A stretch of 64,000 nucleotides of DNA from Thermodesulfobacteriota bacterium (lineage in GTDB: Bacteria > Desulfobacterota > Desulfobacteria > Desulfobacterales > JARGFK01): contig JBFLWU010000015.1 in the NCBI GenBank assembly GCA_040757625.1, positions 7,684 through 71,683 on the forward strand, read 5' to 3'. The position numbers were made by a program, and so were the translations under genes. This document shows positions 20,162-39,597 of this stretch, piece by piece; positions within the stretch are counted from its first letter, which is position 1; every line of letters starts with the position of its first letter. The notes beneath the pieces were generated by a model. It did not search any database. It was not told the origin of the DNA and saw only the letters and a program-made list of their open reading frames with translations.

Positions 20162-21805
20162 ATGGCCGATAGAAGGTATACAAACTTAGGCGAACACCTT
20201 CAGATACTGGAACAAAAAGGGTTGCTGGTCAGGGTCGCCCGGGCAATCAATAAGGACACGGAACTGCATCCGCTGGTGCGGTGGCAGTTCCGCAGCAGCC
20301 TGCCGGAGTCCCAGCGCAAGGGGTTTCTCTTTGAAAACGTGGTCGATGCCAAGGGAAGGCATTATGATTTTCCGGTGGCCGTGGGCGTGCTGGCCTCCAA
20401 TCCGGAGATATACGCTGCCGGGCTTCAGTGCCGCGTGGAGGAAATCGTTACCAGATGGGAAAAAGCCATGGCAAACCCGATCGAACCGGTCGAGGTGAAA
20501 TCGGGTCCGGTGCAGGATGTGGTTTATGAAGGGGGGGCGCTGGATGCTGTCGGGGGACTGGGCATGCTGCCGGTGCCGATTTCAACGCCGGGCTTTGACA
20601 ATGCGCCCTATACCACCTGCTCCCACTGGATGACCAAAGACCTTGAGACCGGCATTCAGAACTCTGGCAACTATCGCGGTCAGATCAAGGGGCCCCGTAA
20701 AATCGGGTGCTATAATCAGCCCGGCCAGCATTTTACCCTTCACCTGGAAAAGTATAAGGAAAAGGGTATTCCCATGGACGCCGCCCTGGTTATCGGCGGC
20801 CCGCCGGTGGTGTCCTATGCCACGGTTCAGAAAGTTCCTTACGGCGTCAATGAAATGGCCGTTGCCGGTGCACTGGCCGGTGAGCCGATCCACATGGTTC
20901 GCTGCAGGACCGTCGACCTGCTGGTGCCGTCCGAGGCAGAGCTGGTCATCGAGGGAAAAGTCAATACCGAATTCTATGAACCCGAGGGACCCTTCGGCGA
21001 ATCCCACGGCCATATGCACCCGCGGGAGCTCAGCCCCTTCATGGACGTTACCGCCATTACCCATCGAAAGGGGATGGTGTATGTTTCCTTTATCAGCCAG
21101 GTGACGCCCAGCGAAAGCAGTGTGATTAAAAAAGTCGGTTATGATCCCCTGTTTCTGCATTTTCTGCGGAATCAGGCCGGCATCAAGAATGTCGTTCGCG
21201 TTAAGATGCATGAGGAAATGACCAATCTGCGCAAGGTGATTTTTATTCAGATGCGCGCGCCTTCCGAAGCCGAGGCCTGGCGGGCATTGATGCTGGCGGC
21301 GGGGTTTCATCAGGGGGTCGGTAAAATCCTGGTGGCCGTGGATGAGGACATCAACGTGGACGACATGGATGCGCTGCTCTGGGCGATCAGCTATCGCTGT
21401 ACTCCCCATAAGGATATTCAGATCATTACCGGCCAGGAAAAAGGGCATGCGCCGCCGTTTGATTATTTTAAGGGATTGACGGAAGACCGGGTCGTTTTCC
21501 AGGAACCTGCGGATGACAGCTCCGTGCTGATCAATGCGGTGTTAAAACGACCGTTTCCGCCGGTTTCGCTTCCCAGGAGAGAATTTATGGAGCGTGCCGC
21601 CCGGATATGGGAAGAGCTGGGGCTGCCGAAAATCGAAAAAAAATACCCCTGGTACGGCTATTCCCTCGGACAATGGGACGAAGAGCTCGAAGAGGAAGCC
21701 GAACTGGCGCTCAAGGGCGAGCACTATCAGACCGGCAATAAGCTGGCGCAAAACAAGGTAAAAATGTCAAAAAAGAAAAGCCCCCTGGCCGGCTCTTATA
21801 AATGA
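20162..21805 (+). CDS. UbiD-family decarboxylase, long form L2 (547 aa), paralog of L1
   Basis: AAGGAGG RBS. Alignable with L1 along its full length (MA.RRY..L..HL..LE.KGLLVRV.R.INKDTELHPLVRWQ..., same GYSLGQWDEELE tail). Confidence 0.9.
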   Translation: MADRRYTNLGEHLQILEQKGLLVRVARAINKDTELHPLVRWQFRSSLPESQRKGFLFENVVDAKGRHYDFPVAVGVLASNPEIYAAGLQCRVEEIVTRWEKAMANPIEPVEVKSGPVQDVVYEGGALDAVGGLGMLPVPISTPGFDNAPYTTCSHWMTKDLETGIQNSGNYRGQIKGPRKIGCYNQPGQHFTLHLEKYKEKGIPMDAALVIGGPPVVSYATVQKVPYGVNEMAVAGALAGEPIHMVRCRTVDLLVPSEAELVIEGKVNTEFYEPEGPFGESHGHMHPRELSPFMDVTAITHRKGMVYVSFISQVTPSESSVIKKVGYDPLFLHFLRNQAGIKNVVRVKMHEEMTNLRKVIFIQMRAPSEAEAWRALMLAAGFHQGVGKILVAVDEDINVDDMDALLWAISYRCTPHKDIQIITGQEKGHAPPFDYFKGLTEDRVVFQEPADDSSVLINAVLKRPFPPVSLPRREFMERAARIWEELGLPKIEKKYPWYGYSLGQWDEELEEEAELALKGEHYQTGNKLAQNKVKMSKKKSPLAGSYK

Positions 21806-21936
21806 GGACTTTGAAAACGGTCCGATTTTTTGTCGTGCTGATTCGAATCCGGACACCTGGGCGCCATAGGGTTCATGCCGGCCGAATCCAAAATACGGCC
21901 GCGACTTTTATAAGTTATTTCCGGGACGCAACACTA

Positions 21937-22629
21937 TCAGGGTTGCGCCAACCGGCGCACATAATAGTTCCAGAACTCCTGGATATTTTTGGAATAGAAA
22001 ACCTGTTCGCCCTTGCCGGCCGACTCACTGGCGCCGGTAGCGGTTAAGGCCCCGATTTGCATCGCCGTGACCTGCAGCTTTGCCGCTCTTTCCAGCAGGG
22101 CGGCATAAACGGTCGCCTCTTCAACGGACGTTCCCGCCACCACCACACCGTGATTCTGCATGAGAAGGGCCCGGTGCCCGCCGAGAGCTCCGGCCACTTT
22201 GCCCCCGAGCTCAACGGAGCGGATCAGAAGGGTTGTTTCCTTAAAAACCGGAATGTTGCTGAACAGGCTGCCCTCATGGCTGATGGTTTGAATGGTATGG
22301 CCGGCAGCGGACAAAGCGATGCAGTAGAACGGATGGGTATGGATAACGCAATGGATATGGGGGTTCTTTTTGTAAATTTCAGTATGAATCGGAAATTCCG
22401 AATGTTTACGACCGGCGCCGGCAAGCTGGTTGCCCTCAAAATCGATGAGGATCATATCCTCGGGCGTCATCTCTTCCAGGCCGAGATCATGCGGGTTCAT
22501 GTGTAAAAAATCATCTCCGGGCCGACGCGCGGTGATATGTCCCATGGTAAGGTTCCCATGACCGGTCATCACCAGAATTTTACAGGCCAGAGCCAGTTTT
22601 CGTGACAATTCGGTATCAATCTGCATCAT
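21937..22629 (-). CDS. class II aldolase/adducin-fold protein
   Basis: Trimmed to ATG 22629 (AAGGAGGAAC upstream). VIHTHPFYCIALS His cluster. Confidence 0.85.
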   Translation of the reverse strand: MMQIDTELSRKLALACKILVMTGHGNLTMGHITARRPGDDFLHMNPHDLGLEEMTPEDMILIDFEGNQLAGAGRKHSEFPIHTEIYKKNPHIHCVIHTHPFYCIALSAAGHTIQTISHEGSLFSNIPVFKETTLLIRSVELGGKVAGALGGHRALLMQNHGVVVAGTSVEEATVYAALLERAAKLQVTAMQIGALTATGASESAGKGEQVFYSKNIQEFWNYYVRRLAQP

Positions 22630-22799
22630 GCTGTTCCTCCTTGTGAAGCGAAAGGGTTTGTCGGCCGACTTCATAAATAGTCAAATTAAGGATCTTTCAT
22701 TAAATGTCATCTCAAAAAAAACATGTCTAATTGATTAAGAGGAAGTGGAAAAAAATATCTATGGAGTGAACCGTCGTCACTTCACAGTTTGCCGGCGCT

Positions 22800-23298: not shown

Positions 23299-23353
23299 TT
23301 GACAATTTAAAATGCCTTTGGCAATAGTTACAAAGTAGCTAATATGTAGTTAC
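23299..23353 (+). promoter_or_regulatory. sigma70-like promoter (TTGACA, extended TG-n-CAATAG) with operator D (TAGTTAC-AAA-GTAGCTA) plus an extra half-site
   Basis: -35 at 23299..23304, operator at 23325..23341, third TAGTTAC at 23347..23353. It lies about 150 nt upstream of the UbiD ATG at 23498. Confidence 0.5.
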
Positions 23354-23497
23354 ATATATCTTGGCCCGGCGGATCGGTGACATCCCAAAAATCCACTTCA
23401 ATGATCTTTTATTATATTAATCGGTATCAGTTGGCAGGGGCTCTAAAAGTCACCCGTTTTTTATCATCAATATAAGCAATCAGAGGAGGTCAATTCG

Positions 23498-25042
23498 ATG
23501 GCAAATGAACATCTCAGAAGTTTAAGGTCAACCCTGGATTGGTTGAAGAAAGACGGTCTGGTTCTGGAAACGGACCGCGAGGTTGATCCCAAATGCGAAA
23601 TGACGGCCTTGCAGAAACGCATGGACGGCGGCCCGCCCATGGTCTTTAACAAGGTCAAGGGGTATGACAATGCCCGGCTGGCGACCAACGTATTCGGTTC
23701 GGATAAAATCGTAGCGAAAATGTTCGGCTGCAAGGACCGCAAGGAATTAAAATTCAAGATCCATGAGGGCATTCTCAACCCCATGGAGCCGCGGATCGTC
23801 GAAGATGCTCCCTGCCAGGAAGTTGTCATTGATAAGAACATCGACGTCTGGCCGGTGATTCCCATGATCCAGCACACTCTCAAAGATCCCGGCCGCACCC
23901 TCGGCGCCGGCAAAACCCTGGCCGGCCCCAAACAGTTCTGGGGCGGCTGGCATATTTCATACAACCGCATGAGCTTTCGGGAAGATTTGCACTGGAAAGA
24001 CAAATCCACCTTTCAGATTTCGCCGGGATCCCATACCGACCAGATCGCCACCCATTTCTACAAAAAAGAACCGATTCCCTTCAGCATCAACATCGGCATC
24101 CCGCCGGCCGCCACCCTGATGGCCGGGGCCGGTTTCATGTACACGATCATTCCCCGGGGTTTCAATGAACTGGGGATCGGTGCGCGCATGCAGGGCTTCC
24201 CGATCGATGTGGTGAAATGCAAGACCGTCGATGCCTATGCCATTGCCGAGGCGGAATACGTCATCGAAGGCTACCTGGATACCACCAAGAAATTGTGGGA
24301 AAGCCCGCTGGCTGAAAAAGATCAGATGCAGGGGGTTTATCCCTTCCATCCGGAATGGTCCGGGTATTTCGGGAAAGCCTATCGTACCTGGCAGTTCAAC
24401 GTTACGGGGATCACCCATCGGAAGAAGAAACCGATCTACGACCCGCTGTGCGTCCACAGTTATGACGACCACAACATCGACGTGCTGGTTCGGGAAGCCT
24501 GCTTTTTCGAACTGGCCGAGCGGGTCAGTCCCGGCTTCTGCGTCGACACCCATATTCCCATGTGTATTCCGGACTGGGGCGGGGTTCTGTTCCAGGTCAA
24601 GAAACGCCGGGCGCGCGACGAGGGGTATCCGCGCAATATACTGGCGGCGGCGCTTTCCTGCTCGCTGGGCGCCAGGTTTGCCATGGTGGTCGATCCGGAC
24701 ATCAACCTGTATTCCATGGATGACATCATGTGGGCCATGTCCACCCGGGTGGACGCCAATGACGACATCATGGTGGTGGCGCCGGGCGGCATGGGGCAGA
24801 CCTTTCAGCCGGCGGAAAGAAGTTCGGCCGGGGAAAAACAATGGACTCAGAGCAATATCCGATTTTCCGGAGCCATCGGCATCGACGCGACGGTGCCCTA
24901 TCAGTATCAGGATGCGTTTGAACGCGCCAGCTACCCCATCGAGCTGGTCAAACTGGAAGACTGGTTTACGAAAGATCAGATCAAGCTGGCCCAGTCTTAT
25001 CAGGAAGCTTACGCCAAGTGGTTCTCTGAATCCGGAATTTAG
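23498..25042 (+). CDS. UbiD-family decarboxylase, 514 aa (U3); candidate aryl-dicarboxyl-CoA (phthaloyl-CoA-type) decarboxylase
   Basis: GAGGAGG RBS. UbiD blocks FAMVVDPDIN and IMWAMSTR. The substrate inference rests only on synteny with two family III CoA-transferases, SucCD and UbiX. Confidence 0.85.
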   Translation: MANEHLRSLRSTLDWLKKDGLVLETDREVDPKCEMTALQKRMDGGPPMVFNKVKGYDNARLATNVFGSDKIVAKMFGCKDRKELKFKIHEGILNPMEPRIVEDAPCQEVVIDKNIDVWPVIPMIQHTLKDPGRTLGAGKTLAGPKQFWGGWHISYNRMSFREDLHWKDKSTFQISPGSHTDQIATHFYKKEPIPFSINIGIPPAATLMAGAGFMYTIIPRGFNELGIGARMQGFPIDVVKCKTVDAYAIAEAEYVIEGYLDTTKKLWESPLAEKDQMQGVYPFHPEWSGYFGKAYRTWQFNVTGITHRKKKPIYDPLCVHSYDDHNIDVLVREACFFELAERVSPGFCVDTHIPMCIPDWGGVLFQVKKRRARDEGYPRNILAAALSCSLGARFAMVVDPDINLYSMDDIMWAMSTRVDANDDIMVVAPGGMGQTFQPAERSSAGEKQWTQSNIRFSGAIGIDATVPYQYQDAFERASYPIELVKLEDWFTKDQIKLAQSYQEAYAKWFSESGI

Positions 25043-25068
25043 TCTTCCGGTTTGAAATAGCAAGAAGA

Positions 25069-25104
25069 ATCTGCCGCGCATCCCGGCTGAGATGCGCGGC
25101 AGAT
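25069..25104 (+). terminator. 14-bp perfect hairpin after U3 (attenuator/processing site; no T-tract)
   Basis: ATCTGCCGCGCATC - CCGGCTGA - GATGCGCGGCAGAT. Confidence 0.35.
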
Positions 25105-25242
25105 CTTACGTTCTGTAACAATTTGTTCTTCCGGTATAACGTATTATTGAAGAACGTTCCTGCAGCTCCTTTTCGGTATTACCTGAAAGCATTTTTCAGG
25201 GTCTGTCCAATCAATTTTTTTCACTAAACAAAGGACAACCAA

Positions 25243-26496
25243 ATGGAAGAAAAAAAGAAATTACTGGATAATTGTCGGGTTCTGGATTTTAGCAATCAGC
25301 TCGGGTTTCTATGCGGCAAGATATTCGGCGATTTGGGCGCGGATGTCATCAAGGTCGAAAAACCCGGCGGGGACGAGTCTCGAAATGCCGGCCCGTATTA
25401 CAAGGACATTCCGGATCCGGAAAAGAACCTTTACTGGTTTGCCTACAATCACAACAAACGCGGGATTACCCTGGATATCGAGAAAAAAACCGGCCGGGAG
25501 ATTCTAAAGAAGCTGATCGAAAAAACGGATATCCTGATTGAAACATTCGCGCCGGGATATCTGGCCGGACTGGGGCTTGATTATGAAGACCTGGCCAAAA
25601 TCAATCCCAAACTGGTGATGTGTTCCATCACCCCCTTCGGTCGGACCGGCCCCTATAAGGATTATGACGGTTCGGATCTGATCTATATGGCCATGAGCGG
25701 TTTCATGTCCCTGGTGGGGGACCCGGACCGGCCGCCGGTGCGGGTGACCCTGCCGCAGTCCTATATGTGGACCAGCATGCACGCGGCCGCAGGCGCCATG
25801 ATGGCGTATTATCATCGTGGCCTTACCGGTGAAGGGCAGCATGTGGATGTCTCCGCCCAGGCCGGTGTCTTGTGGGCCTGTTCAATTTCGCCGTCCTTCT
25901 ATGATTATAACAAAGAACTTCCCGGCCGGGCGGGGGTGTTCATCACCGGCCGGAGCATTACCGGCGCAAAGATGCGGGCCGTTGAACCCTGTAAGGACGG
26001 GTATGTGAATTATATTATTTACGGCGGACCGGCGGGCATCCGCACCAACATGCAGATGACGGAATGGATGGACAGAAAGGGCAAGGCCCCCGATTATCTG
26101 AAAAATAAAGACTGGAAGAAATTCAACATCGCCACGGTCACCCAGGAGGAGATTGATCAGATTGAAGATGCCAACAATACATTTCTGAAGGGCGTTACCA
26201 AAAAAGAGTTTTTTGACACGTGTCTTGAAAAGGACATGCTGGGGTACCCGGTGGCCACCTCCCAGGATACCATGGAAGATGAACAGCTCAAAGCCAGGGG
26301 ACTCTGGAAAGAAATCGAACATGAAGACCTGGGGGCTAAAATCACCTATCCCTCGTTTTTTACGAAGTTTTCTACGCTGGCGTGCGACCTGTGGCGCAGA
26401 GCCCCTTTGATCGGGGAGCACAACGAAGAGGTTTACGCTGAACTGGGCTATACCAATGAAGATTTATTAAACCTCATGCGGGCCAATGTAATTTAA
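25243..26496 (+). CDS. family III (CaiB/BaiF) CoA-transferase, subunit 1
   Basis: 417 aa. N-terminus RVLDFSNQLGFLCGKIFGDLGADVIKVEKPGGD is typical of the family. Confidence 0.9.
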   Translation: MEEKKKLLDNCRVLDFSNQLGFLCGKIFGDLGADVIKVEKPGGDESRNAGPYYKDIPDPEKNLYWFAYNHNKRGITLDIEKKTGREILKKLIEKTDILIETFAPGYLAGLGLDYEDLAKINPKLVMCSITPFGRTGPYKDYDGSDLIYMAMSGFMSLVGDPDRPPVRVTLPQSYMWTSMHAAAGAMMAYYHRGLTGEGQHVDVSAQAGVLWACSISPSFYDYNKELPGRAGVFITGRSITGAKMRAVEPCKDGYVNYIIYGGPAGIRTNMQMTEWMDRKGKAPDYLKNKDWKKFNIATVTQEEIDQIEDANNTFLKGVTKKEFFDTCLEKDMLGYPVATSQDTMEDEQLKARGLWKEIEHEDLGAKITYPSFFTKFSTLACDLWRRAPLIGEHNEEVYAELGYTNEDLLNLMRANVI

Positions 26497-26538
26497 TCGA
26501 AAATCATTGCAGCGGAAAAAATATCAGGAGATGAAAGC

Positions 26539-27765
26539 ATGAAAAAGGGTGTATTTGAAGGAATAAAAGTGGCTGAGTTTGCTGCGATCGCCGCAGGACC
26601 GCTGATCGGCAAATTCATGGCCGATCACGGCGCCACGGTCGTCCATGTGGAGTCCTATGCCAGACCGGATGGCTTCAGATCCAACTATCCTCCTTACAAA
26701 GACAACAAGCCCGGCCTGAACCGCTCGGGTTCCTTTGCCATCTGCAACAACAATAAGCTGGGGGTTACCATTAATTTAAAGGCCCCCGGGGCCATCGACG
26801 TTGCCAGGAAGCTGGTACAGTGGGCGGATGTGGTGACCGAAAATTTCACGCCCGGGACGATGGATAAGCTGGGGCTGGGTTACGAAGACCTCAAAAAGGT
26901 CAAGCCGGATATCATCATGCTGAGCACCTGCAACCAGGGACAAACCGGCCCGCATGCCCAGCATCCGGGGTTTGGATCACACCTGTCGTCGCTGTGCGGT
27001 TTTACCTATGTAACCGGCTATAAGGACTGCGAGCCCTCTATCCTGTACGGACCCTACGTGGATCATATCGGGGTGGGATACGGCGTCATTGCGGTTACGG
27101 CCGCGTTGGAGCATAAACGCCGCACCGGCGAAGGCCAGCTGATCGATTCGGCCCAGTACGAAGGCGGCGTGCAATTCATGATGCCGGCACTGCTGGAATA
27201 TACCGTCAATAACCGGGTGATGGAGCGCGACGGCAACCGTCACGCCTATGCCGCCCCCCACAATGTTTATCCCTGCAAGGGCCAAGACCGCTGGTGCGCC
27301 ATCAGTGTGTTTACCGACGCGGAGTGGGGCCGCCTGTGCAAGGTCATCGGAAAGGTGCACCTCACGGCCGACCCGCGTTTTGCCACCGTGCTGGCCCGGA
27401 AACGGCATGAGGAAGCGGCCGATCGGGAGATCGCCGAATGGACCTCCCGGCAGACCGCCGAAGAAGCCTTTAAACTGCTTCAGGATAACGGCGTAAAGGC
27501 CGGGGTCGTTCAGACCATCGCGGACCTGTTTATCGATCCGCAGCTGGCGCACCGGGGCATATTCGCGCCGGTGGAGCATCCGGTGGTGGGCCGGACCCAT
27601 GCCGAGGGGCCGCCGTTTGCTTTTTCCAAAACGCCGTTTCAGATCGACCGCCCCTCGCCCTGCATCGGCGAACATAACCGTCTGGTTTTCACGGAGTATC
27701 TGGGATATTCTGAAGAAGAATTCAAGACATTTCATGAGGTGGGGATTATCGACGCTCCGAAATAA
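26539..27765 (+). CDS. family III (CaiB/BaiF) CoA-transferase, subunit 2
   Basis: 408 aa. IKVAEFAAIAAGPLIGKFMADHGATVVHVE. Paralog of the preceding gene. Confidence 0.9.
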   Translation: MKKGVFEGIKVAEFAAIAAGPLIGKFMADHGATVVHVESYARPDGFRSNYPPYKDNKPGLNRSGSFAICNNNKLGVTINLKAPGAIDVARKLVQWADVVTENFTPGTMDKLGLGYEDLKKVKPDIIMLSTCNQGQTGPHAQHPGFGSHLSSLCGFTYVTGYKDCEPSILYGPYVDHIGVGYGVIAVTAALEHKRRTGEGQLIDSAQYEGGVQFMMPALLEYTVNNRVMERDGNRHAYAAPHNVYPCKGQDRWCAISVFTDAEWGRLCKVIGKVHLTADPRFATVLARKRHEEAADREIAEWTSRQTAEEAFKLLQDNGVKAGVVQTIADLFIDPQLAHRGIFAPVEHPVVGRTHAEGPPFAFSKTPFQIDRPSPCIGEHNRLVFTEYLGYSEEEFKTFHEVGIIDAPK

Positions 27766-27952
27766 TGCCTGAGCGGAGCATTATATTGAAGAACCCTGCA
27801 GCAAGCTGCGGGGAAAGCGCTCGCTGTCGCGGTTCAGGCAAGGCCCGAATATCGAGGCGCAACGTTTGAATTTCGCGTTCCGAAACAAAAACCTGGGTTT
27901 TCGGTAAACTGCTAAACAATCCGGCTTTCGTAAGCGCATAGGGGATGGAGTT

Positions 27953-29116
27953 ATGAAAATTCATGAATATCAGGCCAAGGAGCTGTTTAAAAAGTTCGGC
28001 ATCCCGGTTCCCAAAGGGGCGGTCGCCTTCAGCCCGGCGGAGGCCCAGGCGGTCGCCCGGGATATCGGCACCTTGCCGGTGGTGGTCAAAGCCCAGATTC
28101 ACGCCGGCGGCAGGGGCAAGGGCGGCGGGGTCAAGCTGGCCCGGACACTTGATGAAATCGGAAAGCTGGCAGAAGAAATTATCGGGATGAACCTTGTTAC
28201 CCATCAGACCGGGCCCGAGGGGAAAGAAGTCAAAAAAGTCCTCGTGGAACAGGGGCTTGGAATTGATAAGGAACTATATCTCAGCATCGTTCCGGATCGT
28301 TCCTCCGCCCGGATCGTCGTAATGGCCAGCGAGGCCGGAGGAATGGATATCGAGGCGGTGGCGGCCAAAACGCCTGAAAAAATCATCAAGGTCGGCATCG
28401 ATCCGCTGGCGGGCATCCAGCCCCATCACTGCCGCCAGGTTGCCTTCGGGCTGAAGTTTTCACCGGCCGCCCAGAAACAGTTTGTCCCGATGCTGAGCGC
28501 ACTTTACCGTTTGTTTATCGCTTATGATTGTTCGCTGGTTGAGATCAACCCGCTGGTTTTGACCAAGGATGAAACCCTGATCGCCCTGGATGCCAAAATC
28601 AATTTTGACGATAACGGCCTGTTTCGACATAAAGACGTTCTGGCGTACCGTGACCTTGACGAAGAAGATCCCCTGGAAGTCGAGGCATCCAAATTCAATA
28701 TCAATTACATCAAGATGGATGGAAACGTCGGCAACATGGTCAACGGCGCCGGCCTAGCCATGGCGACCATGGATATCATCAAACGCGCCGGGGCCGAGCC
28801 GGCCAATTTTCTTGATGTCGGCGGCGGCGCCAGCGCGGAAATGGTGGAAAACGGTTTTCGCATTATTTTAAGCGATAAGAACGTGAAGGCCATTTTGATC
28901 AATATTTTCGGCGGCATATTGCGCTGCGACGTCCTGAGCACCGGCGTGGTTGAGGCCGCCAAAAAGACGGGCATCCAGGTGCCGGTGGTGGTCCGGATGG
29001 AGGGCACCAATGTCGCGGAAGGACGCAGAATCCTGGCCGAATCCGGCCTCAATCTGATTTCCGCAAAAGACCTTAAGGATGCGGCCCAAAGGATTTCTGA
29101 AATCGTCAGGGCCTGA
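27953..29116 (+). CDS. sucC: succinate--CoA ligase (ADP-forming) beta subunit
   Basis: MKIHEYQAKELFKKFGIPVP..., GGRGKGGGVKL, and 387 aa length. Confidence 0.95.
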   Translation: MKIHEYQAKELFKKFGIPVPKGAVAFSPAEAQAVARDIGTLPVVVKAQIHAGGRGKGGGVKLARTLDEIGKLAEEIIGMNLVTHQTGPEGKEVKKVLVEQGLGIDKELYLSIVPDRSSARIVVMASEAGGMDIEAVAAKTPEKIIKVGIDPLAGIQPHHCRQVAFGLKFSPAAQKQFVPMLSALYRLFIAYDCSLVEINPLVLTKDETLIALDAKINFDDNGLFRHKDVLAYRDLDEEDPLEVEASKFNINYIKMDGNVGNMVNGAGLAMATMDIIKRAGAEPANFLDVGGGASAEMVENGFRIILSDKNVKAILINIFGGILRCDVLSTGVVEAAKKTGIQVPVVVRMEGTNVAEGRRILAESGLNLISAKDLKDAAQRISEIVRA

Positions 29117-29173
29117 GTGTCGATTGCTATCCCCTACACGTTGTGATAATCCTAATTCATCAAAGGTGTTGCT

Positions 29174-30046
29174 ATGAGCATATTCGTAAATAAAGATACG
29201 CGACTCGTCGTCCAGGGAATTACCGGCCGGGAAGGGCAGTTTCACGCCCGCCAGTGCGTTCTCTATGGCACCCAGGTGGTCGCCGGCGTGACTCCCGGAA
29301 AAGGGGGCCAGAAGATGGACGATGTGCCGGTATTCGACACCGTCAGGGAAGCGGTTAAACAAACCGGTGCCAATTGCAGCATGATTTTTGTGCCGCCGCC
29401 CTTTGCCGCCGATGCGATTTTTGAGGCGGCGGATGCAGGCCTTGCACTCGTGGTGGCCATCACCGACGGCATTCCGGTCCTGGATATGATGCGGGTAAAG
29501 GCCTATCTGCAGAAAACGCCGACACGGCTGATCGGGCCCAATTGCCCGGGCATTATAACACCCGGGGAGGCCAAGGTTGGGATTATGCCGGGACCCATCC
29601 ACAAGCCGGGGGGGCCCATCGGGGTCATCTCCCGTTCCGGAACCTTAACCTATGAAGTCGTCAACCAGTTGACCCTGAAAGGAATCGGGCAGACAACCTG
29701 CGTCGGAATCGGCGGCGATCCGATTGTGGGAACCGGCATGATCGATTGCCTGGCCGCTTTTGAAAAAGACCCGGACACCAAAGGGGTGGTCATGGTCGGC
29801 GAAATCGGCGGGACCGCCGAGGAAGAGGCCGCCCGGTTTATCAAAGCTCATTTGACCAAACCGGTGGTGAGCTTGATCGCGGGACTGACCGCTCCTCCCG
29901 GACGCCGCATGGGACATGCCGGCGCCATCATCGACGGTTCGGGCGGAACCGCCCAGGGCAAGATCGAGGCGTTGAAAGCCTGCGGGGTCCATGTGTGCGA
30001 GGATCTGGGATCCATCGGTGATTTTTGCAGCAGAATCTTTAAATGA
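29174..30046 (+). CDS. sucD: succinate--CoA ligase alpha subunit
   Basis: [21 protein letters not shown]..., SRSGTLTYE, and the phosphohistidine loop GHAGAI. Confidence 0.95.
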
Positions 30047-30236
30047 TGCGGCTGGCTCGAGCCTGAATCTCCCTGATTCGTCACTTCCGCAAAGGCGGAG
30101 GCCCGGGATCTGACGGAAATACCGGGTTTCCGCTTTCGTGCGAAAGACTCTAAAGGGGAAACAGCGACTTTTGCTACCGGCTCATCAACCGCTAACTTTG
30201 AACCCAAACGTTTTTAATTTAGTAAAAGGAAGTTGA

Positions 30237-30806
30237 ATGGAAAGAATAGTCGTGGGAATGTCGGGCGCATCAGGCGCCATTCTGGGCATCAGGCTGCTGG
30301 AAGTCCTGTCGGTGTCCGATTTTGAGGTCCACCTGGTGATTTCCGGTTCCGCCAAACGAACGATCGAACTGGAAACGGACTGGCAGCTAAAAGATGTGGA
30401 GGCCCTGGCCTCAAAGGTGCACGATTTCGACGACATCGGCGCCCCCATAGCCAGCGGATCATTCAGGACCAGGGGCATGGCCATTGTGCCGTGCTCCATC
30501 AAGACCCTGTCGGCGCTTGCAAATTCTTACAATACCAACCTGCTGATACGGGCGGCGGATGTTACCCTCAAAGAGCGCCGCCGGCTGGTGGTGGTCCCCC
30601 GGGAGGCGCCGCTGCATGCCGGTCATCTCGATTTGATGGCAAAGGTGGAGCGTCTCAGGGGGATGATTTTGCCGCCGTTTATGACGTTTTACCACCGCCC
30701 CAAAAACCTGGACGACATGATAAACCACCTCGTGGGCAAGGTTCTGGATTGTTTTCATATCGACAACAACCTGTTCCAGCGGTGGGGAGAAAAAAATAAA
30801 AAATGA
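30237..30806 (+). CDS. ubiX: UbiX flavin prenyltransferase (prFMN synthase)
   Basis: 189 aa. MERIVVGMSGASGAILGIRLLE, MAIVPCSIKTLSA, RRLVVVPREAPL. Confidence 0.95.
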   Translation: MERIVVGMSGASGAILGIRLLEVLSVSDFEVHLVISGSAKRTIELETDWQLKDVEALASKVHDFDDIGAPIASGSFRTRGMAIVPCSIKTLSALANSYNTNLLIRAADVTLKERRRLVVVPREAPLHAGHLDLMAKVERLRGMILPPFMTFYHRPKNLDDMINHLVGKVLDCFHIDNNLFQRWGEKNKK

Positions 30807-30819: not shown

Positions 30820-32280
30820 ATGAAGCACCGAATTCCCTACGAAGACCTGAGAGGCTGGCTGGATCAGGCCCGCAAGCTGAACGAGGTCAAAGACGTCGAC
30901 GGCGCCAGCTGGCAGGAAGACATCGGCATGGCCACGGAATTGCTGCATCATTCGGATCCGGCGCCGGCTGCACTGTTTGACAATATTCCCGGCTATCCTC
31001 AAGGATACCGCGTTCTGACCAATTTTTTCGGCGCCAGACGCATGAACATGACCCTGGGATTTCCGACCGACTTGAGCCGGGTCGAGCTTTCCAACGCCTT
31101 TACCGAGGTCTATCAGTCCGTCAAACCGATTCCGCACGAATATGTCAAAGACGGCCCCATTTTTGAGAATATCCAGGAAGGCGATAATGTCAACGTGCTC
31201 TCTTTCCCGACCCCTTTCTGGCACGAACAGGATGGCGGCCGCTATATCGGCACCGGCAGTTACGACATCACCCGGGACCCGGACGAGAACTGGATCAACC
31301 TCGGGACCTACCGCGTAATGGTGCACGACGAAAAAAGCTTGGGATTTTATATCTCCCCCGGCAAACACGGGCGGGTCCATCGCGACAAATTCATGGCCCT
31401 GAAGCAGCCGATGCCGGTGGTCGTGGTGGTCGGCGGCGATCCTTTCCTTTATTTGATGGCCTGCAACGAAGTCCCTTACGGCATCTGCGAGTACGACCTG
31501 GCGGGCGGCTTCCGCGGCAAGCCCTATCCGGTCGTCAAGGGTCGGGTGACCGGCCTGCCGATACCGGCCCATGCCGAAATCGCCCTGGAGGGCTTTGTCG
31601 ATCCGCGCAAAAGGCGGCAGGAAGGACCCTTCGGTGAATGGACCGGGTATTACGCCAGCGGCGCGCGCGAAGAACCGGTGGTGGACGTCAAGGCGATTTA
31701 TCACCGCAACAATCCCATTATTCTGGGCTGTCCCCCCAACCGGCCGCCGGATGAAATCGCCCGCTACCGGGCGGTGGTCCGATCCGGCCTGCTGAAACAG
31801 CAGCTGCTCAACAGTGGCCTTTCCGGAATCAAAGCGGTCTGGGGCCATGAGGTGGGCAGTTCGCGTATGCTCCTGACCGTCGCCATCGAGCAGCGCTACG
31901 CCGGGCATGCCACCCAGGTGGGTCACGTCGCCTCGCAATGCCATGTGGGGGCTTATGCCGGCAAGTATGTCATCGTGGTGGACGACGATATCGACGTCTC
32001 CGATCTTGAAGCGGTCATGTGGGCCGTGGTTTCACGTTCGGATCCGGCCACGTCCATCGATATCATTCACAACGCCTGGTCGACGCATCTCGACCCGCGG
32101 ATCCCTCCGGAAGACAAGCACAAGGGGCAGCTGACCAACTCCCGCGCCATTATCGACGCGACCCGTCCCTTTGCCTGGAAAGAACAGTTTCCGCTGGTGA
32201 ACATGCCCAGCCCGGAAACCGCGCGGAAGGCCAGGGAAAAATTCGGTTACCTGCTCGACGGGTTCTGCAAGTCGCTTTAA
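30820..32280 (+). CDS. UbiD-family decarboxylase/carboxylase, 486 aa (U4)
   Basis: Starts 13 nt after the ubiX stop. Blocks QDGGRYIGT, EGPFGEWTGYY, EQRYAGHATQ, VIVVDDDID, SRAIIDATRPF. Confidence 0.9.
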   Translation: MKHRIPYEDLRGWLDQARKLNEVKDVDGASWQEDIGMATELLHHSDPAPAALFDNIPGYPQGYRVLTNFFGARRMNMTLGFPTDLSRVELSNAFTEVYQSVKPIPHEYVKDGPIFENIQEGDNVNVLSFPTPFWHEQDGGRYIGTGSYDITRDPDENWINLGTYRVMVHDEKSLGFYISPGKHGRVHRDKFMALKQPMPVVVVVGGDPFLYLMACNEVPYGICEYDLAGGFRGKPYPVVKGRVTGLPIPAHAEIALEGFVDPRKRRQEGPFGEWTGYYASGAREEPVVDVKAIYHRNNPIILGCPPNRPPDEIARYRAVVRSGLLKQQLLNSGLSGIKAVWGHEVGSSRMLLTVAIEQRYAGHATQVGHVASQCHVGAYAGKYVIVVDDDIDVSDLEAVMWAVVSRSDPATSIDIIHNAWSTHLDPRIPPEDKHKGQLTNSRAIIDATRPFAWKEQFPLVNMPSPETARKAREKFGYLLDGFCKSL

Positions 32281-32392
32281 ATCCATGATCGCTGTCAACG
32301 CTTGAGAGGTAAATGACGACGGTGAATCAAAGGAAGCGTTTATTAAAGAATTGAAAAACAAAAAAGAGAGCTGGACAACAGGAGATCAAAAC

Positions 32393-33829
32393 ATGGCACA
32401 TAAGGACTTGAGAGATTGGCTGAAAAAAGTTGAAAAGATGGGGCAGTTGAAAAAGGTTGATGGCGCCAACTGGGACCTGGAAATGGGGGCCATCACCGAG
32501 CTGATATACCAGGAGGGCAAGGGGACCCCCCCGGCCGTTTTGTTCGACCAGGTTCCCGGGTACCCGAAAGGCTTCCGGGCGCTCTTCGGGATGACCTGTT
32601 CGGTGGAAAGAATGGCCCTGACGTTGAACCTGCCGCCCGTTAAAACCGGCGTCGAACTGGTCCGGGCGTATCGTAACAAACTCAAGGATTTTAAACCGAT
32701 ACCCCCCCGATATGTAAAGGACGGCCCCATATTTGAAAATATCGACCGGGGCGACGACGTCAACGTCCTCAAGTTTCCGGTGCCGCTCCATCATGAACTC
32801 GACGGCGGCCGTTATATCGGTACGGGCTGTATGACCATGACCCGCGATCCGGAGGAGGGGTGGGTCAATTTCGGCGCCTACCGCGTCATGGTGCACGATG
32901 AAAAGACGATCGGCTTTTATATTTCGCCGGGCAAGCACGGCAACCTCCAGCGCCAGAAATATTTTGACAAGAACCAGCCCTGCCCGGCGGTGGTGTGCGT
33001 GGGGCAGGATCCGATGCTGTTCCTGGCTTCGGGCAACGAGGTCCCCTACGGCCTGTCCGAATACGATTACGCCGGCGGTTTTAAAGGCGAACCCATCGAC
33101 GTGGTCAAGGCCGAGTATACCGGATTCCCCATCCCGGCACATGCGGAAATCGTCCTGGAGGGCGAAGCGGTCCCCGGCGATGAAAAACTGGAAGGCCCCT
33201 TCGGCGAGTGGTCCGGCTATTACGCCAGCGACGCGAGGGTGGAGCCGGTGATCCGGGTCAAGAACGTTTATTACCGCAAGAATCCGATCCATACCTGCGC
33301 CCGTCCCGGAAGGCCGCCTTCGGACTACTCTTTCAGCAAATGCGTCGTCAAGTCGGCCATGATCTGGGATGAGCTGGAGAAGGCCGGCGTTCCCAACGTC
33401 AGGGGGGTCTGGTGCCACGAGGCCGGCGGCGGCAGGATGTTCAATATCGTCTCCATCAAGAACTCCTACCCGGGACACTCCCGCCAGGCCGGCATGATTA
33501 CCTCCCAGTGCCATGCCGGCGCTTACCTGGGAAGATATGTCGTGGTGGTGGATGACGATATCGATCCCTCCAACACCTTTGACGTTCTCTGGGCGATTGC
33601 CTCGCGTTCCGAACCGACCGAATCCATCGAAATCATCCGCAGCTGCTGGAGCGGACCGCTGGATCCCCGCATTCCCGAGGAGCGAAAGGGGCTCAATTCA
33701 CGGGCGATCATCGATGCCTGCCGTCCCTATCAGTGGCGCAAACGCTTTCCGGCCGTGGCGGAATCGAGTCCGGAGCTGAAGAAAAAGACGCTGAAGAAAT
33801 GGCACCGAACGATTTTTGACGGAAAATAA
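32393..33829 (+). CDS. UbiD-family decarboxylase/carboxylase, 478 aa (U5)
   Basis: ORF 32351 trimmed to ATG 32393 (AGGAG RBS). Blocks LDGGRYIGT, EGPFGEWSGYY, KNSYPGHSRQ, VVVVDDDIDP, SRAIIDACRPY. Confidence 0.9.
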   Translation: MAHKDLRDWLKKVEKMGQLKKVDGANWDLEMGAITELIYQEGKGTPPAVLFDQVPGYPKGFRALFGMTCSVERMALTLNLPPVKTGVELVRAYRNKLKDFKPIPPRYVKDGPIFENIDRGDDVNVLKFPVPLHHELDGGRYIGTGCMTMTRDPEEGWVNFGAYRVMVHDEKTIGFYISPGKHGNLQRQKYFDKNQPCPAVVCVGQDPMLFLASGNEVPYGLSEYDYAGGFKGEPIDVVKAEYTGFPIPAHAEIVLEGEAVPGDEKLEGPFGEWSGYYASDARVEPVIRVKNVYYRKNPIHTCARPGRPPSDYSFSKCVVKSAMIWDELEKAGVPNVRGVWCHEAGGGRMFNIVSIKNSYPGHSRQAGMITSQCHAGAYLGRYVVVVDDDIDPSNTFDVLWAIASRSEPTESIEIIRSCWSGPLDPRIPEERKGLNSRAIIDACRPYQWRKRFPAVAESSPELKKKTLKKWHRTIFDGK

Positions 33830-33873: not shown

Positions 33874-34440
33874 ATGACCGGACAGGAAACAAAGGATTAC
33901 AGCGACATCTGGGCCGCCGGACAGGAGAAATATCAGAAGCAGCGGCTTTACGTGAGAGCGATCGCCGGTTTCAGCTACAGCATGGCGCAGCAGCTCAAGG
34001 AACTGCGGAGCGTCCCGCGCGTCATGAAGGCAAAAGATCTGAAATTCGCCAAGGGCCCGCAGTATTTCAACTGTACCATCCTCAGTCCCATCCGCAACAT
34101 GGCCCAGTCGATCTTTACGCACATGTGCGTCCTGACGCCGGAGGGCAAATCCCAGAAGCACGGGCACGTGAACGAGGCCATTTTCTTCATACTGGACGGC
34201 GAAGGATATGACATCCACGACGGAGAGCGGCAGGACTGGAAGGCCGGCGATATCGCCATTGTCCCGAATTCAACAGTGCATCAGCACTTCAATAAGAGCA
34301 AGGACAAACTGGCGCGGGTGCTGATCATCAAGACCAAGCCTTTCTATCATTTCATGAATATGTTTTTCCAGGAAGTGGTGGAACCGCAGCCGAAGACGCC
34401 TGTTCCCGGTTATGAGGATTTTAAGCCCAGCATTACCTAA
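33874..34440 (+). CDS. monocupin, gentisate-dioxygenase-like, type A (second pair)
   Basis: AAGGAG RBS. SQKHGHVNEAIFFILDG and GDIAIVPNSTVHQHFN. Paralog of 8621..9163. Confidence 0.75.
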   Translation: MTGQETKDYSDIWAAGQEKYQKQRLYVRAIAGFSYSMAQQLKELRSVPRVMKAKDLKFAKGPQYFNCTILSPIRNMAQSIFTHMCVLTPEGKSQKHGHVNEAIFFILDGEGYDIHDGERQDWKAGDIAIVPNSTVHQHFNKSKDKLARVLIIKTKPFYHFMNMFFQEVVEPQPKTPVPGYEDFKPSIT

Positions 34441-34475
34441 ACAGCCTGCTAATGTCGAAAGGGGAGGATAACGTT

Positions 34476-35027: not shown

Positions 35028-35166
35028 GGATCCGGGTTCAGAGGGACCAAGTTCGAACCCAGGCCCGGCTGGCATGAGTTTGAGCCTTCAGCGGCATTAT
35101 TCGCTTGTCCGGTAAGTTGCGATGGTGAAACGGAATATCCATTAATCCGAATTTCGAGAGAATTTT

Positions 35167-37958: not shown

Positions 37959-38009
37959 AAGCTGTCTCAAAATAATTATACTCTAAAGCCTGCTAAATAA
38001 TAAATGGTC

Positions 38010-38093: not shown

Positions 38094-38137
38094 CCCGCTT
38101 ATAAAAGTCTTTCTAAGAGAATGGAGGAATCAAGCGA

Positions 38138-39481: not shown

Positions 39482-39597
39482 TCTAATCCCCCGGTTTGGA
39501 TTGGTTGGCTCCGCTTACCCGGAACCCCCCCGGTTTTTTATCGGCCCTGATCCCGTCCCGGCCAAATTGGGTTGAGAGCGGTATAGGGCGCTTTCGT

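What the first reader, a model, noticed from the sequence alone, without database searches (positions are those of the whole stretch)
23299..30806. Phthaloyl-CoA-type module with succinyl-CoA regeneration built into the operon
The gene order is UbiD (514 aa), two paralogous family III CoA-transferases, sucC, sucD, then ubiX. Known anaerobic o-phthalate degradation uses a heteromeric succinyl-CoA:phthalate CoA-transferase plus the prFMN enzyme phthaloyl-CoA decarboxylase and a UbiX-like protein. This was described in denitrifying Thauera, Aromatoleum and Azoarcus strains and in Desulfosarcina cetonica. In this window a complete SucCD sits between the transferases and UbiX. That placement would regenerate the succinyl-CoA donor locally, which may matter because the phthaloyl-CoA intermediate is very labile. 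The true substrate (o-, iso- or tere-phthalate, or a substituted dicarboxylate) cannot be read from the sequence.
Basis: partly seen in the sequence, partly recalled or inferred. Interest (0 to 1): 0.7.

Follow-up and report, generated by a model that had tools for sequence, protein, structure and literature searches.

The report
Anaerobic phthalate module with built-in SucCD
An uncultured sulfate-reducer-type bacterium carries the known anaerobic genes for turning the plasticiser breakdown product phthalate into benzoyl-CoA, in a version where the enzyme that recharges the CoA donor (succinyl-CoA synthetase) is wired into the same operon; this is a modest new variant of a known pathway.

Summary
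In detail: six intact + strand genes, UbiD, two family III CoA-transferases, sucC, sucD and ubiX. The UbiD is a phthaloyl-CoA decarboxylase (PCD) homologue: 48% identical over its full length to the solved Thauera enzyme (E 2e-154; next UbiD 6e-42). The transferases match one-to-one the two subunits in the Aromatoleum EbN1 phthalate cluster (46% and 49%). As in benzylsuccinate CoA-transferase, only one subunit keeps the catalytic Asp. SucC and SucD pass NCBI's equivalog cut-offs.

Among 99 related loci carrying a PCD match, 37 pair PCD with these transferases and 17 with an AMP-forming ligase. sucCD adjoins 8 of the 37 and 0 of the 17, upstream or downstream, with different sucCD and transferase lineages. 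The linkage is therefore selected.

Best reading: phthalate + ATP + CoA gives benzoyl-CoA + CO2 + ADP + Pi, through a succinyl-CoA/succinate shuttle.

- Desulfosarcina cetonica is reported to use a ligase, not a transferase.
- The gene string does not stop at ubiX. It runs to a strong terminator near 38.9 kb and includes three more UbiDs.
- Substrate identity is inferred, not shown.

Verdict: new variant of a known kind, moderate interest.

The parts
23299..23345 (+). Promoter-like sites upstream of the PCD gene: TTGACA-18-AATAGT, overlapped by TTGGCA-16-TAATAT. A direct repeat TAGTTACA...TAGTTACA follows.
   Evidence: consensus scan, not above the shuffle expectation; sequence read.
23498..25042 (+). 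Phthaloyl-CoA decarboxylase homologue (UbiD family, prFMN enzyme), 514 aa.
   Evidence: 8oz5/8pmk, E 2e-154, residues 7-498; 47% to EbN1 PCD; 48% to Thauera PCD; inside the PCD clade.
25068..25105 (+). A 14-bp GC-rich stem-loop 26 nt after the PCD stop, with no T tract. It may act as an RNA 3'-end barrier or attenuator between pcd and the transferase genes.
   Evidence: spacer z = -3.6. Similar but non-homologous hairpins occur in 16 of 27 related transferase-type loci.
25243..26496 (+). CoA-transferase family III, A-type subunit, 417 aa. It has Tyr in place of the catalytic Asp.
   Evidence: 46% to the first EbN1 transferase, only 27% to the second; 9fn0_A, 3.5e-67.
26539..27765 (+). CoA-transferase family III, B-type subunit, 408 aa. 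Catalytic Asp175 (YVDH) is present.
   Evidence: 49% to the second EbN1 transferase; 9fn0_B, 5.6e-76; Asp aligned with the Asp of BbsEF chain B, 4ed9 and SUGCT.
27953..29116 (+). SucC, ADP-forming succinate-CoA ligase beta subunit, 387 aa.
   Evidence: NF001913, 580 bits, cut-off 370; malate-CoA ligase model below its cut-off.
29174..30046 (+). SucD, succinate-CoA ligase alpha subunit, 290 aa, with the GHAGA loop at residues 247-251.
   Evidence: NF004230, 450 bits, cut-off 336.
30237..30806 (+). UbiX flavin prenyltransferase (prFMN synthase), 189 aa. It is the only ubiX in the window.
   Evidence: NF004685, 250 bits, cut-off 188; 47% to EbN1 UbiX.
30820..33829 (+). Two further UbiD paralogues (486 and 492 aa) of the PhdA / phenylphosphate-carboxylase-beta type. 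The first starts 13 nt after the ubiX stop.
   Evidence: 7pda, 7.7e-111; 7PDA is phenazine-1-carboxylate decarboxylase; 66% to an EbN1 plasmid UbiD near the phthalate genes.
33874..36624 (+). A cupin-cupin-UbiD cassette (188, 191 and 485 aa). The cupins resemble halves of the gentisate 1,2-dioxygenase bicupin. A paralogous cassette lies at 8540-11221.
36861..38833 (+). Ornithine-cyclodeaminase/mu-crystallin family gene (365 aa) and class II aldolase-like gene (231 aa). The aldolase's best NCBIfam match is PhtC 3,4-dihydroxyphthalate decarboxylase, below cut-off.
38847..38885 (.). Strong bidirectional intrinsic terminator (AAAAAGACCGCCCGG...CCGGGCGGTCTTTTTTTT). This is the probable 3' end of the gene string that begins at 23498.
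   Evidence: z = -7.3.
38927..42173 (-). Convergent TctB-TctA-TctC tripartite tricarboxylate transporter, a candidate uptake system.
   Evidence: TctA/TctC genes also adjoin PCD modules in L001, L007, L009 and L051.
20162..22674 (.). Upstream, syntenically conserved pair: an HmfF-like UbiD (547 aa, + strand) and a class II aldolase-like gene (245 aa, - strand).
   Evidence: conserved in L021, L101 and L104.

Best explanation
The six genes form the transferase-type anaerobic o-phthalate activation and decarboxylation module, fitted with its own CoA-donor recycling.

Proposed steps:
1. The heteromeric family III transferase moves CoA from succinyl-CoA to phthalate. The B subunit (26539-27765) carries the catalytic Asp. 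The A subunit (25243-26496) does not.
2. The prFMN enzyme PCD (23498-25042), supplied with cofactor by UbiX (30237-30806), decarboxylates the labile phthaloyl-CoA to benzoyl-CoA.
3. SucCD (27953-30046) reconverts the released succinate to succinyl-CoA at the cost of one ATP to ADP.

The net reaction is phthalate + CoA + ATP -> benzoyl-CoA + CO2 + ADP + Pi.

Co-transcribing sucCD keeps the succinyl-CoA/succinate ratio high. This matters in a strict anaerobe whose central metabolism may not deliver succinyl-CoA at catabolic flux. It helps drive the unfavourable formation of phthaloyl-CoA. It also costs one ATP equivalent, against two for an AMP-forming ligase.

Homology, residue patterns and conserved linkage are shown. 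Substrate, donor, direction and energetics are inferred.
For: PCD:
- Full-length match to the solved Thauera PCD, E 2e-154, against 6e-42 for the next UbiD.
- 48% identity to Thauera PCD and 47% to EbN1 PCD.
- It lies inside the PCD clade, separate from two window UbiD paralogues used as outgroups (UbiD486, UbiD547); it is only 24-27% identical to all seven paralogues.

Transferase:
- Reciprocal one-to-one similarity to the two EbN1 phthalate-cluster subunits (46% and 49%; 27% for the one cross-pair that gave a hit), in the same order after PCD.
- Best solved relatives are the two chains of the succinyl-CoA-dependent benzylsuccinate CoA-transferase.
- Catalytic Asp is present only in the B-type subunit; Tyr replaces it in the A-type subunit, as in EbN1 and BbsEF chain A.

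SucCD and UbiX:
- They pass the curated cut-offs, and SucD has the GHAGA loop.

Linkage:
- PCD-A-B is a conserved module in 37 of 99 related loci that carry a PCD match.
- sucCD is adjacent in 8 of those 37 and in 0 of 17 ligase-type loci. It is also adjacent in L101 and L104.
- It lies downstream of the transferases in most loci and upstream of PCD in L031 and L051.
- PCD-linked SucC copies fall into three groups, only 38-44% or 55-66% identical between groups, while PCD is 80-89% identical between the two larger groups (62-63% to the third, L051). These groups combine with two different transferase lineages. That pattern indicates repeated recruitment or retention.
- A random 20-kb neighbourhood should hold sucCD in about 1% of cases (my estimate).

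Other:
- The window contains no AMP-ligase homologue.
- Literature: succinyl-CoA:phthalate transferase plus PCD plus UbiX is the established denitrifier route, and excess PCD is thought to capture labile phthaloyl-CoA.
Against: - Identity to characterised enzymes is only 46-49%, so substrate specificity is not proven.
- A sister clade of the PCD family includes a 68%-identical protein from the isophthalate degrader Pelotomaculum isophthalicicum.
- No isophthaloyl-CoA decarboxylase sequence could be obtained for comparison.
- About two thirds of well-flanked transferase-type loci lack an adjacent sucCD (5 of 16 have it). The linkage is therefore helpful rather than obligatory.
- The window SucC is about 80% identical to ordinary Desulfobacterales SucC, and one such homologue sits in a methylmalonyl-CoA-pathway context. 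It may be the genome's only copy rather than a dedicated one. This is unresolved.
- Co-transcription is inferred from strand, spacing and one terminator, not measured. Three spacers of about 190-200 nt could hold internal promoters.
Confidence: 0.72

Rival explanations
1. The architecture is the same but the substrate differs. The module activates and decarboxylates another aromatic or alicyclic dicarboxyl-CoA, such as isophthalate, terephthalate, or a hydroxy-, methyl- or carboxy-substituted phthalate. Alternatively, o-phthalate is only the last intermediate of a longer decarboxylation funnel encoded by the neighbouring UbiD, cupin and aldolase-like genes.
For: - Only 46-49% identity to characterised enzymes.
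- The 13-gene string with three extra UbiDs, a split bicupin and a PhtC-like aldolase-fold protein is conserved at 78-98% amino-acid identity in L021, L101 and L104.
- The window holds eight UbiDs and four TTT transporter sets.
- A second PhdA-like UbiD recurs beside PCD modules in EbN1, L041, L045, L007, L049 and L063.
- The closest cultured-organism homologue comes from an isophthalate degrader.
Against: - Characterised o-phthalate PCDs (EbN1, Thauera) lie inside the same family.
- Many loci consist of only the three-gene PCD-A-B module among unrelated genes, so the module can stand alone.
- The denitrifier transferases are reported to be specific for o-phthalate.
- The pcd-first gene order with a downstream hairpin fits the need for excess PCD, which arises from the instability reported for o-phthaloyl-CoA; isophthalyl-CoA is reported stable.
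Confidence: 0.2
2. sucCD is simply the host's housekeeping succinyl-CoA synthetase. It sits here through neutral gene-order drift and has no functional tie to phthalate catabolism.
For: - The window SucC is an ordinary equivalog-level SucC, 78-83% identical to very many Desulfobacterales SucCs.
- One homologue lies in a central-metabolic context.
- Most transferase-type loci lack it.
Against: - Adjacency recurs in at least four PCD sub-lineages, in two arrangements, with mixed sucCD and transferase ancestries. It is never seen next to ligase-type modules.
- sucCD is embedded between the transferase genes and ubiX, not at the edge of the cluster.
- There is no terminator between these genes.
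Confidence: 0.06
3. The SucCD-like enzyme itself is an ADP-forming phthalate-CoA ligase, and the transferases serve a different step.
For: SucCD enzymes of some bacteria are known to accept other dicarboxylates (my recollection, not tested here).
Against: - Equivalog-level score and about 80% identity to ordinary SucC.
- PCD-A-B modules without sucCD are common.
- The transferases correspond subunit for subunit to the two CoA-transferase genes of the EbN1 phthalate cluster, which sit directly after its PCD gene.
Confidence: 0.02

Closest known systems
Succinyl-CoA:phthalate CoA-transferase + phthaloyl-CoA decarboxylase + UbiX-like protein of denitrifying Thauera chlorobenzoica, Aromatoleum aromaticum EbN1 and Azoarcus sp. 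PA01
   Same: The same four protein types are present. Similarity is one-to-one (PCD 47-48%, subunits 46% and 49%, UbiX 47%). The order PCD, A subunit, B subunit is the same. The A subunit lacks the catalytic Asp in both.
   Different: - In the window, sucCD is inserted between the transferase genes and ubiX. The EbN1 cluster has none within the 19.5 kb examined.
- ubiX is downstream here and upstream in EbN1.
- The neighbouring transporter is TTT here, against TAXI-TRAP in EbN1.
- The host is an uncultured Desulfobacterales-like anaerobe rather than a denitrifying betaproteobacterium.
- A 200-nt spacer with a hairpin follows pcd here, against 27 nt in EbN1.
ATP-dependent phthalate CoA ligase + PCD route of the sulfate reducer Desulfosarcina cetonica
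   Same: The host type is a strictly anaerobic deltaproteobacterium. The route goes through phthaloyl-CoA and a PCD. ATP ultimately pays for activation.
   Different: - Activation here uses a transferase plus SucCD (ADP-forming), not a ligase. The window has no AMP-binding ligase.
- Ligase-type PCD loci form separate clades and never carry sucCD.
- The D. cetonica sequences themselves were not available for comparison.
[quoted passage not shown]
   Same: These are the best solved relatives of both subunits (3.5e-67 and 5.6e-76), chain for chain. The heteromeric design is the same, with Asp in one chain and Tyr in the other. The reference enzyme uses succinyl-CoA as donor.
   Different: The pathway context differs: no bbs or bss genes are present. 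In toluene catabolism succinyl-CoA is regenerated by the pathway's own thiolase step (established knowledge), so no sucCD is needed there.
Isophthalate:CoA ligase + isophthaloyl-CoA decarboxylase of Syntrophorhabdus aromaticivorans
   Same: The logic is the same: CoA activation followed by UbiD-type decarboxylation to benzoyl-CoA in a strict anaerobe.
   Different: It uses a PaaK-type ligase, and succinyl-CoA is not a donor. Its decarboxylase sequence could not be retrieved, so relatedness to the window protein is untested.

Membership tests
Phthaloyl-CoA decarboxylase (UbiD family) | Full-length sequence similarity to a biochemically and structurally characterised PCD that clearly exceeds similarity to other characterised UbiDs | tested here: met
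   8oz5/8pmk E 2e-154 (518 bits, residues 7-498), against AroY at 6.5e-42. Identity is 48% to Thauera and 47% to EbN1.
Phthaloyl-CoA decarboxylase (UbiD family) | Branches inside the clade that holds characterised PCDs, apart from paralogous UbiDs | tested here: met
   NJ tree of 90+ PCD-family sequences with UbiD486 and UbiD547 as outgroups. This is a distance tree without support values. Identity to the window paralogues is only 24-27%.
Phthaloyl-CoA decarboxylase (UbiD family) | UbiD three-domain architecture and conserved prFMN/metal/acid-base residues | tested here: inconclusive
   The three Pfam domains are present. N156, R161, H179, E224 and E286 (in FHPEWSGY) are invariant in a 14-sequence alignment that includes EbN1 PCD. 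Equating them with the catalytic residues of Fdc1/UbiD rests on my memory of motif spacing, not on a structure-based alignment.
Phthaloyl-CoA decarboxylase (UbiD family) | Co-encoded UbiX-type prFMN synthase | tested here: met
   UbiX at 30237-30806, NF004685 250 bits against cut-off 188.
Phthaloyl-CoA decarboxylase (UbiD family) | Decarboxylates o-phthaloyl-CoA to benzoyl-CoA and discriminates against the iso- and tere-isomers | not testable with these tools
   This needs an enzyme assay.
Succinyl-CoA:phthalate CoA-transferase (heteromeric family III, SptAB/PhtSaSb type) | Two adjacent paralogous family III subunits, each matching one subunit of the reference enzyme | tested here: met
   CoAT417 is 46% identical to the first EbN1 transferase gene (27% to the second). 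CoAT408 is 49% identical to the second. The order is the same. Assigning the EbN1 genes to the characterised enzyme rests on their position next to PCD and on the literature.
Succinyl-CoA:phthalate CoA-transferase (heteromeric family III, SptAB/PhtSaSb type) | Family III catalytic Asp present in only one subunit type | tested here: met
   Asp175 in CoAT408 aligns with the Asp of BbsEF chain B, 4ed9 and SUGCT. The aligned residue is Tyr in CoAT417, in the EbN1 A subunit and in BbsEF chain A.
Succinyl-CoA:phthalate CoA-transferase (heteromeric family III, SptAB/PhtSaSb type) | Not of the formyl-CoA/oxalate, carnitine or bile-acid type | tested here: met
   All NCBIfam equivalogs for those enzymes score far below their cut-offs. 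PDB formyl-CoA transferases score 1e-28 to 1e-43, against 1e-67 and 1e-76 for BbsEF.
Succinyl-CoA:phthalate CoA-transferase (heteromeric family III, SptAB/PhtSaSb type) | Uses succinyl-CoA as donor and o-phthalate as acceptor | not testable with these tools
   Indirect support only: the sucCD linkage and homology to succinyl-CoA-dependent enzymes.
ADP-forming succinyl-CoA synthetase SucCD | Both subunits reach the curated equivalog scores, and the alpha subunit has the phosphohistidine loop | tested here: met
   SucC 580 bits (cut-off 370) and SucD 450 bits (cut-off 336). The malate-CoA ligase model scores 522 bits, below its 604 cut-off. GHAGA lies at SucD 247-251; its role as the phosphohistidine loop is from established knowledge.
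ADP-forming succinyl-CoA synthetase SucCD | A dedicated extra copy, distinct from the housekeeping enzyme | tested here: inconclusive
   Only one sucCD lies in the 64-kb window. An 80% homologue lies in a methylmalonyl-CoA-pathway context in another genome. Accession spacing hints that some Desulfobacterales MAGs have two sucC genes. The window's own genome could not be searched.
Ligase-type anaerobic phthalate module (D. cetonica / Pelotomaculum type) | AMP-binding CoA ligase encoded next to PCD | tested here: not met
   No homologue of the Pelotomaculum PCD-adjacent ligase occurs anywhere in the window, and no AMP-binding domain was found in any annotated ORF.

The most novel reading that the evidence does not exclude
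The PCD/transferase/SucCD genes may be only the terminal step of a conserved gene string of about 15.5 kb and 13 genes. In the window they lie within a wider 64-kb island with eight UbiD decarboxylases, duplicated cupin-cupin-UbiD cassettes, PhtC-like aldolase-fold proteins and four tricarboxylate-type transporters. Together these would funnel benzene polycarboxylates or substituted phthalates, by successive non-oxidative decarboxylations, into o-phthalate and then benzoyl-CoA without oxygen. Such substrates could come from humic matter, coal, black carbon or PAH breakdown. This would be an undescribed anaerobic pathway. It would also explain why 'xenobiotic' phthalate genes are common in groundwater, sediment and soil metagenomes.
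Probability: 0.2. Interest if true: 0.7.

Novelty: new variant of a known kind. Interest (0 to 1): 0.45.

Why it matters
Current accounts split anaerobic phthalate activation in two: succinyl-CoA-dependent transferases in denitrifiers and ATP-dependent ligases in obligate anaerobes. This locus and its relatives blur that split.

- Transferase-type modules appear common in uncultured Thermodesulfobacteriota.
- A recurrent subset couples the transferase to its own succinyl-CoA synthetase. That makes an ATP-driven route that forms ADP, using a transferase.
- This gives a concrete, testable answer to how energy-limited anaerobes pay for the unfavourable formation of one of the least stable CoA esters known.
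- It improves annotation rules for plasticiser-degradation potential in metagenomes. PCD plus the A and B subunits, with or without sucCD, should be scored as a phthalate module.
- It supplies a compact six-gene cassette for engineering phthalate-to-benzoyl-CoA conversion in hosts with a low succinyl-CoA supply.

Tried and rejected
- Literature search for prior description: no paper in the held library combines phthaloyl-/phthalyl-CoA with succinyl-CoA synthetase. One multi-synonym search was uninformative. The key primary papers (Geiger 2019, Ebenau-Jehle 2017, Junghare 2019, Boll 2020) are not held, so prior mention cannot be excluded.
- PDB codes 8OZ5/8P02/8PMK led to no paper, so substrate-contact residues could not be checked.
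- Comparison with isophthaloyl-CoA decarboxylase and with D. cetonica PCD/PCL was not possible.
- Exact look-up of the window's SucC found no other contig.
- Trying to show a second sucCD in the L104 genome through accession numbers was inconclusive.
- Rfam: no known RNA family in the window at gathering thresholds.
- RNAalifold on the three copies of the 190-nt repeat gave no convincing covariation. Its terminal inverted repeats point to a MITE rather than a riboswitch.
- The sigma-70 promoter scan is no better than shuffles, so the promoter call is weak.
- I considered that the AOR at 56615-58408 might be a BamB-type benzoyl-CoA reductase subunit. NCBIfam gives only a partial, sub-threshold AOR match, so I make no claim.

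Full report
**1. Observation**

Pfam and NCBIfam assign them as follows:
- A three-domain UbiD, 514 aa.
- Two full-length family III CoA-transferases, 417 and 408 aa, 28% identical to each other.
- SucC: NF001913, 580 bits, cut-off 370.
- SucD: NF004230, 450 bits, cut-off 336.
- UbiX: NF004685, 250 bits, cut-off 188.

All match their profiles end to end. SucD has the GHAGA loop. The finding's start coordinate is a TTGACA-18-AATAGT site, but such sites are not enriched over shuffles.

**2. The decarboxylase**

Against all PDB chains, the 514-aa protein hits Thauera phthaloyl-CoA decarboxylase (8oz5, 8p02, 8pmk) at E 2.3e-154 over residues 7-498. The next characterised UbiD, AroY, scores 6.5e-42. 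Identity is 48% to the Thauera chain and 47% to the Aromatoleum aromaticum EbN1 plasmid homologue, which is itself 95% identical to the Thauera enzyme. The protein is only 24-27% identical to the seven other UbiD paralogues in the window.

In a neighbour-joining tree of more than 90 family members rooted with window paralogues, it lies inside the PCD family. The EbN1 sequence branches basally. Residues N156, R161, H179, E224 and E286 (in FHPEWSGY) are invariant across a 14-sequence family alignment that includes EbN1. Equating them with the UbiD metal/prFMN and acid-base residues is my inference from motif spacing.

**3. The transferase**

The EbN1 phthalate cluster reads UbiX, PCD, CoA-transferase, CoA-transferase. 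The window's first transferase is 46% identical to the first EbN1 gene and only 27% to the second. The window's second is 49% identical to the second EbN1 gene. So this is a one-to-one correspondence in the same order.

The best solved relatives are chains A and B of the succinyl-CoA-dependent benzylsuccinate CoA-transferase (3.5e-67 and 5.6e-76). Formyl-CoA transferases are far weaker, and all NCBIfam oxalate, carnitine and mesaconate equivalogs fall below their cut-offs.

The family III catalytic Asp is present in the B-type subunit (Asp175, YVDH). It aligns with the Asp of BbsEF chain B, 4ed9 and SUGCT. In the A-type subunit of the window, of EbN1, of two related loci and of BbsEF chain A it is replaced by Tyr. 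This is the signature of a heteromer with one catalytic subunit type.

**4. Is sucCD there for a reason?**

Two collection scans with the PCD gave 98 related loci: 18 from species-representative genomes and 80 from metagenomes. With the Pelotomaculum locus L020, 99 loci carry a PCD match. A tblastn census of their neighbourhoods found:
- 37 loci where PCD is followed, or rarely preceded, by the A/B transferase pair.
- 17 loci where PCD is directly followed by an AMP-binding ligase. These include Pelotomaculum isophthalicicum JI.
- 45 loci with neither, or too short to tell.

sucCD is adjacent in 8 of the 37 transferase loci and in 0 of the 17 ligase loci. Among loci with at least 2.5 kb on both sides the figures are 5 of 16 and 0 of 5. 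Two more cases came from a SucC search (L101, L104).

The arrangement varies. sucCD lies after the transferases in most loci and before PCD in L031 and L051. Component histories are mosaic:
- PCD-linked SucC copies fall into three groups that are only 38-44% or 55-66% identical between groups, while PCD is 80-89% identical between the two larger groups (62-63% to the third, L051).
- L009 and L005 share SucC at 78% but the A subunit at 53%.

SucCD-linked loci are scattered over at least four places in the PCD tree. A random 20-kb neighbourhood should contain sucCD in roughly 1% of cases (my estimate). The linkage is therefore selected, and it is specific to the transferase route. This also supports succinyl-CoA as the donor.

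The window SucC is otherwise ordinary. It is 78-83% identical to very many Desulfobacterales SucCs. One of these lies beside methylmalonyl-CoA mutase, MeaB and carboxyltransferase genes. I could not determine whether the window genome has a second copy.

**5. Mechanism proposed**

1. Succinyl-CoA + phthalate -> phthaloyl-CoA + succinate (A/B transferase).
2. Phthaloyl-CoA -> benzoyl-CoA + CO2 (PCD, with prFMN from UbiX).
3. Succinate + ATP + CoA -> succinyl-CoA + ADP + Pi (SucCD).

Homology, residues and linkage are shown. Substrates, direction and energetics are inferred.

A better rationale has three parts:
- Strict anaerobes may lack a high-flux source of succinyl-CoA.
- Both removal of succinate and removal of phthaloyl-CoA help drive an unfavourable transfer.
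- An ADP-forming recharge costs one ATP equivalent, against two for an AMP-forming ligase.

Futile decay of phthaloyl-CoA also consumes succinyl-CoA, which SucCD can replace.

**6. Correction on prior knowledge**

The papers held here state that denitrifiers use the transferase. They state that Desulfosarcina cetonica uses an ATP-dependent phthalate CoA ligase.

The hosts of the window's clade are annotated as uncultured Desulfobacterales, Syntrophales or Thermodesulfobacteriota MAGs from groundwater, sediment and peat. Transferase-type modules in obligate anaerobes thus appear common, and the sucCD-coupled form is a hybrid of the two published strategies. I found no held paper that mentions it, but the key subscription papers could not be read.

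**7. Extent of the unit**

The next UbiD gene begins 13 nt after the ubiX stop. The same-strand string continues with UbiD486, UbiD492, cupin, cupin, UbiD485, an OCD-family gene and a class II aldolase-like gene. It ends at a canonical bidirectional terminator near 38847-38885 (z = -7.3). From there a TctBAC transporter converges.

The whole string, together with the upstream HmfF-like UbiD and aldolase-like gene, is conserved at 78-98% amino-acid identity in three other contigs: L021, L101 and L104. L104 is a Desulfobacterales MAG. A shorter version occurs in L001. Many other loci carry only the three-gene PCD-A-B module among unrelated genes such as mutS or ribBA, so the core module can stand alone.

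**8. Rivals**

- A different or broader substrate remains possible (about 0.2). Reasons: identities below 50%, a 68%-identical homologue in an isophthalate degrader, and conserved neighbouring decarboxylases.
- Chance placement of a housekeeping sucCD is unlikely (about 0.06), given the census.
- A phthalate-activating SucCD is very unlikely.

**9. Verdict**

This is a new variant of a known pathway, not a new kind of system. It is of moderate interest for anaerobic aromatic catabolism and for annotating plasticiser-degradation potential.

Noticed in passing
window 2466-4142(-), 9797-11221, 20162-21805, 23498-25042, 30820-32280, 32351-33829, 35167-36624, 42242-43738(-): There are eight UbiD-family genes in 64 kb, served by a single ubiX. 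They fall into three classes: PCD (1), HmfF-like (2, 62% identical to each other) and PhdA/phenylphosphate-carboxylase-beta-like (5, 42-52% identical). The island also holds four TTT transporter sets, three TPP enzymes, an AOR with its ferredoxin, PrpD and AcnX.
   Followed up: partly
window 8540-11221 and 33874-36624; L017 2626-3731; L001 9212-10383: A duplicated three-gene cassette, cupin-cupin-UbiD. Cupin207 matches cupin188 at 41% and cupin197 matches cupin191 at 50%. The two monocupins resemble the halves of the gentisate 1,2-dioxygenase bicupin (3bu7, E 2e-13). In L017 the same cupin pair directly follows a PCD homologue. Their function in a presumed strict anaerobe is unknown.
   Followed up: partly
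window 25068-25105; the PCD-transferase spacers of L004, L005, L007, L008, L009, L013, L021-L026, L030, L033: A long GC-rich stem-loop without a T tract lies just after the PCD stop. Among related transferase-type loci with a spacer of at least 50 nt, 16 of 27 have z < -2 and 20 of 27 have stems of at least 10 bp, although the hairpin sequences differ. It could raise the PCD:transferase ratio, which would fit the reported need for excess PCD. Alternatively, these could be REP-like elements.
   Followed up: partly
window 22800-22995, 36655-36848, 55598-55790 (with an inverted partial copy at 55793-55834); L104 19013-19238 and 1-53: A repeat of about 190 nt with three + strand intergenic copies, 76-81% identical. 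About 40 nt of its 5' end recurs inverted just downstream of the copy at 55598-55790 (55793-55834) and of the L104 copy. It is also present at the same UbiD485|OCD junction in a related MAG. It matches no Rfam family and shows no convincing covariation. It is most likely a MITE.
   Followed up: partly
window 4373-5080(-), 21937-22674(-), 38138-38833(+): Three class II aldolase/adducin-fold genes. Two were scanned against NCBIfam (21937-22674 and 38138-38833): PhtC 3,4-dihydroxyphthalate decarboxylase is the best match for one and the fourth-best for the other, at 83-101 bits against a cut-off of 200. This hints at metal-dependent aromatic acid decarboxylases.
   Followed up: partly
L019 (EbN1 plasmid 2) 3711-5225 and 1-406; L041, L045, L007, L049, L063: A second, PhdA-like UbiD recurs next to PCD modules in unrelated hosts. 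The EbN1 plasmid copy is 66% identical to window UbiD486 and lies beside an ABC transporter, 3.7 kb from the phthalate genes. Its role is unknown to me.
   Followed up: no
L016 (CP070751.1, labelled Thermoplasmata archaeon) 10001-11032: An 81%-identical match covers only PCD residues 1-344 in a record labelled as an archaeal chromosome. This may be a truncated gene or a binning/assembly chimera.
   Followed up: no
L006 13092-14048: In one complete MAG chromosome, an Amidohydro_2 gene is inserted between the A and B transferase genes of the PCD module.
   Followed up: no
(P0158/P0203; P0185/P0222): Pairs of distinct SucC proteins, each about 80% identical to the window's, have NCBI accessions only about 1,500-2,200 apart. 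This suggests that some Desulfobacterales MAGs carry two sucC genes.
   Followed up: no
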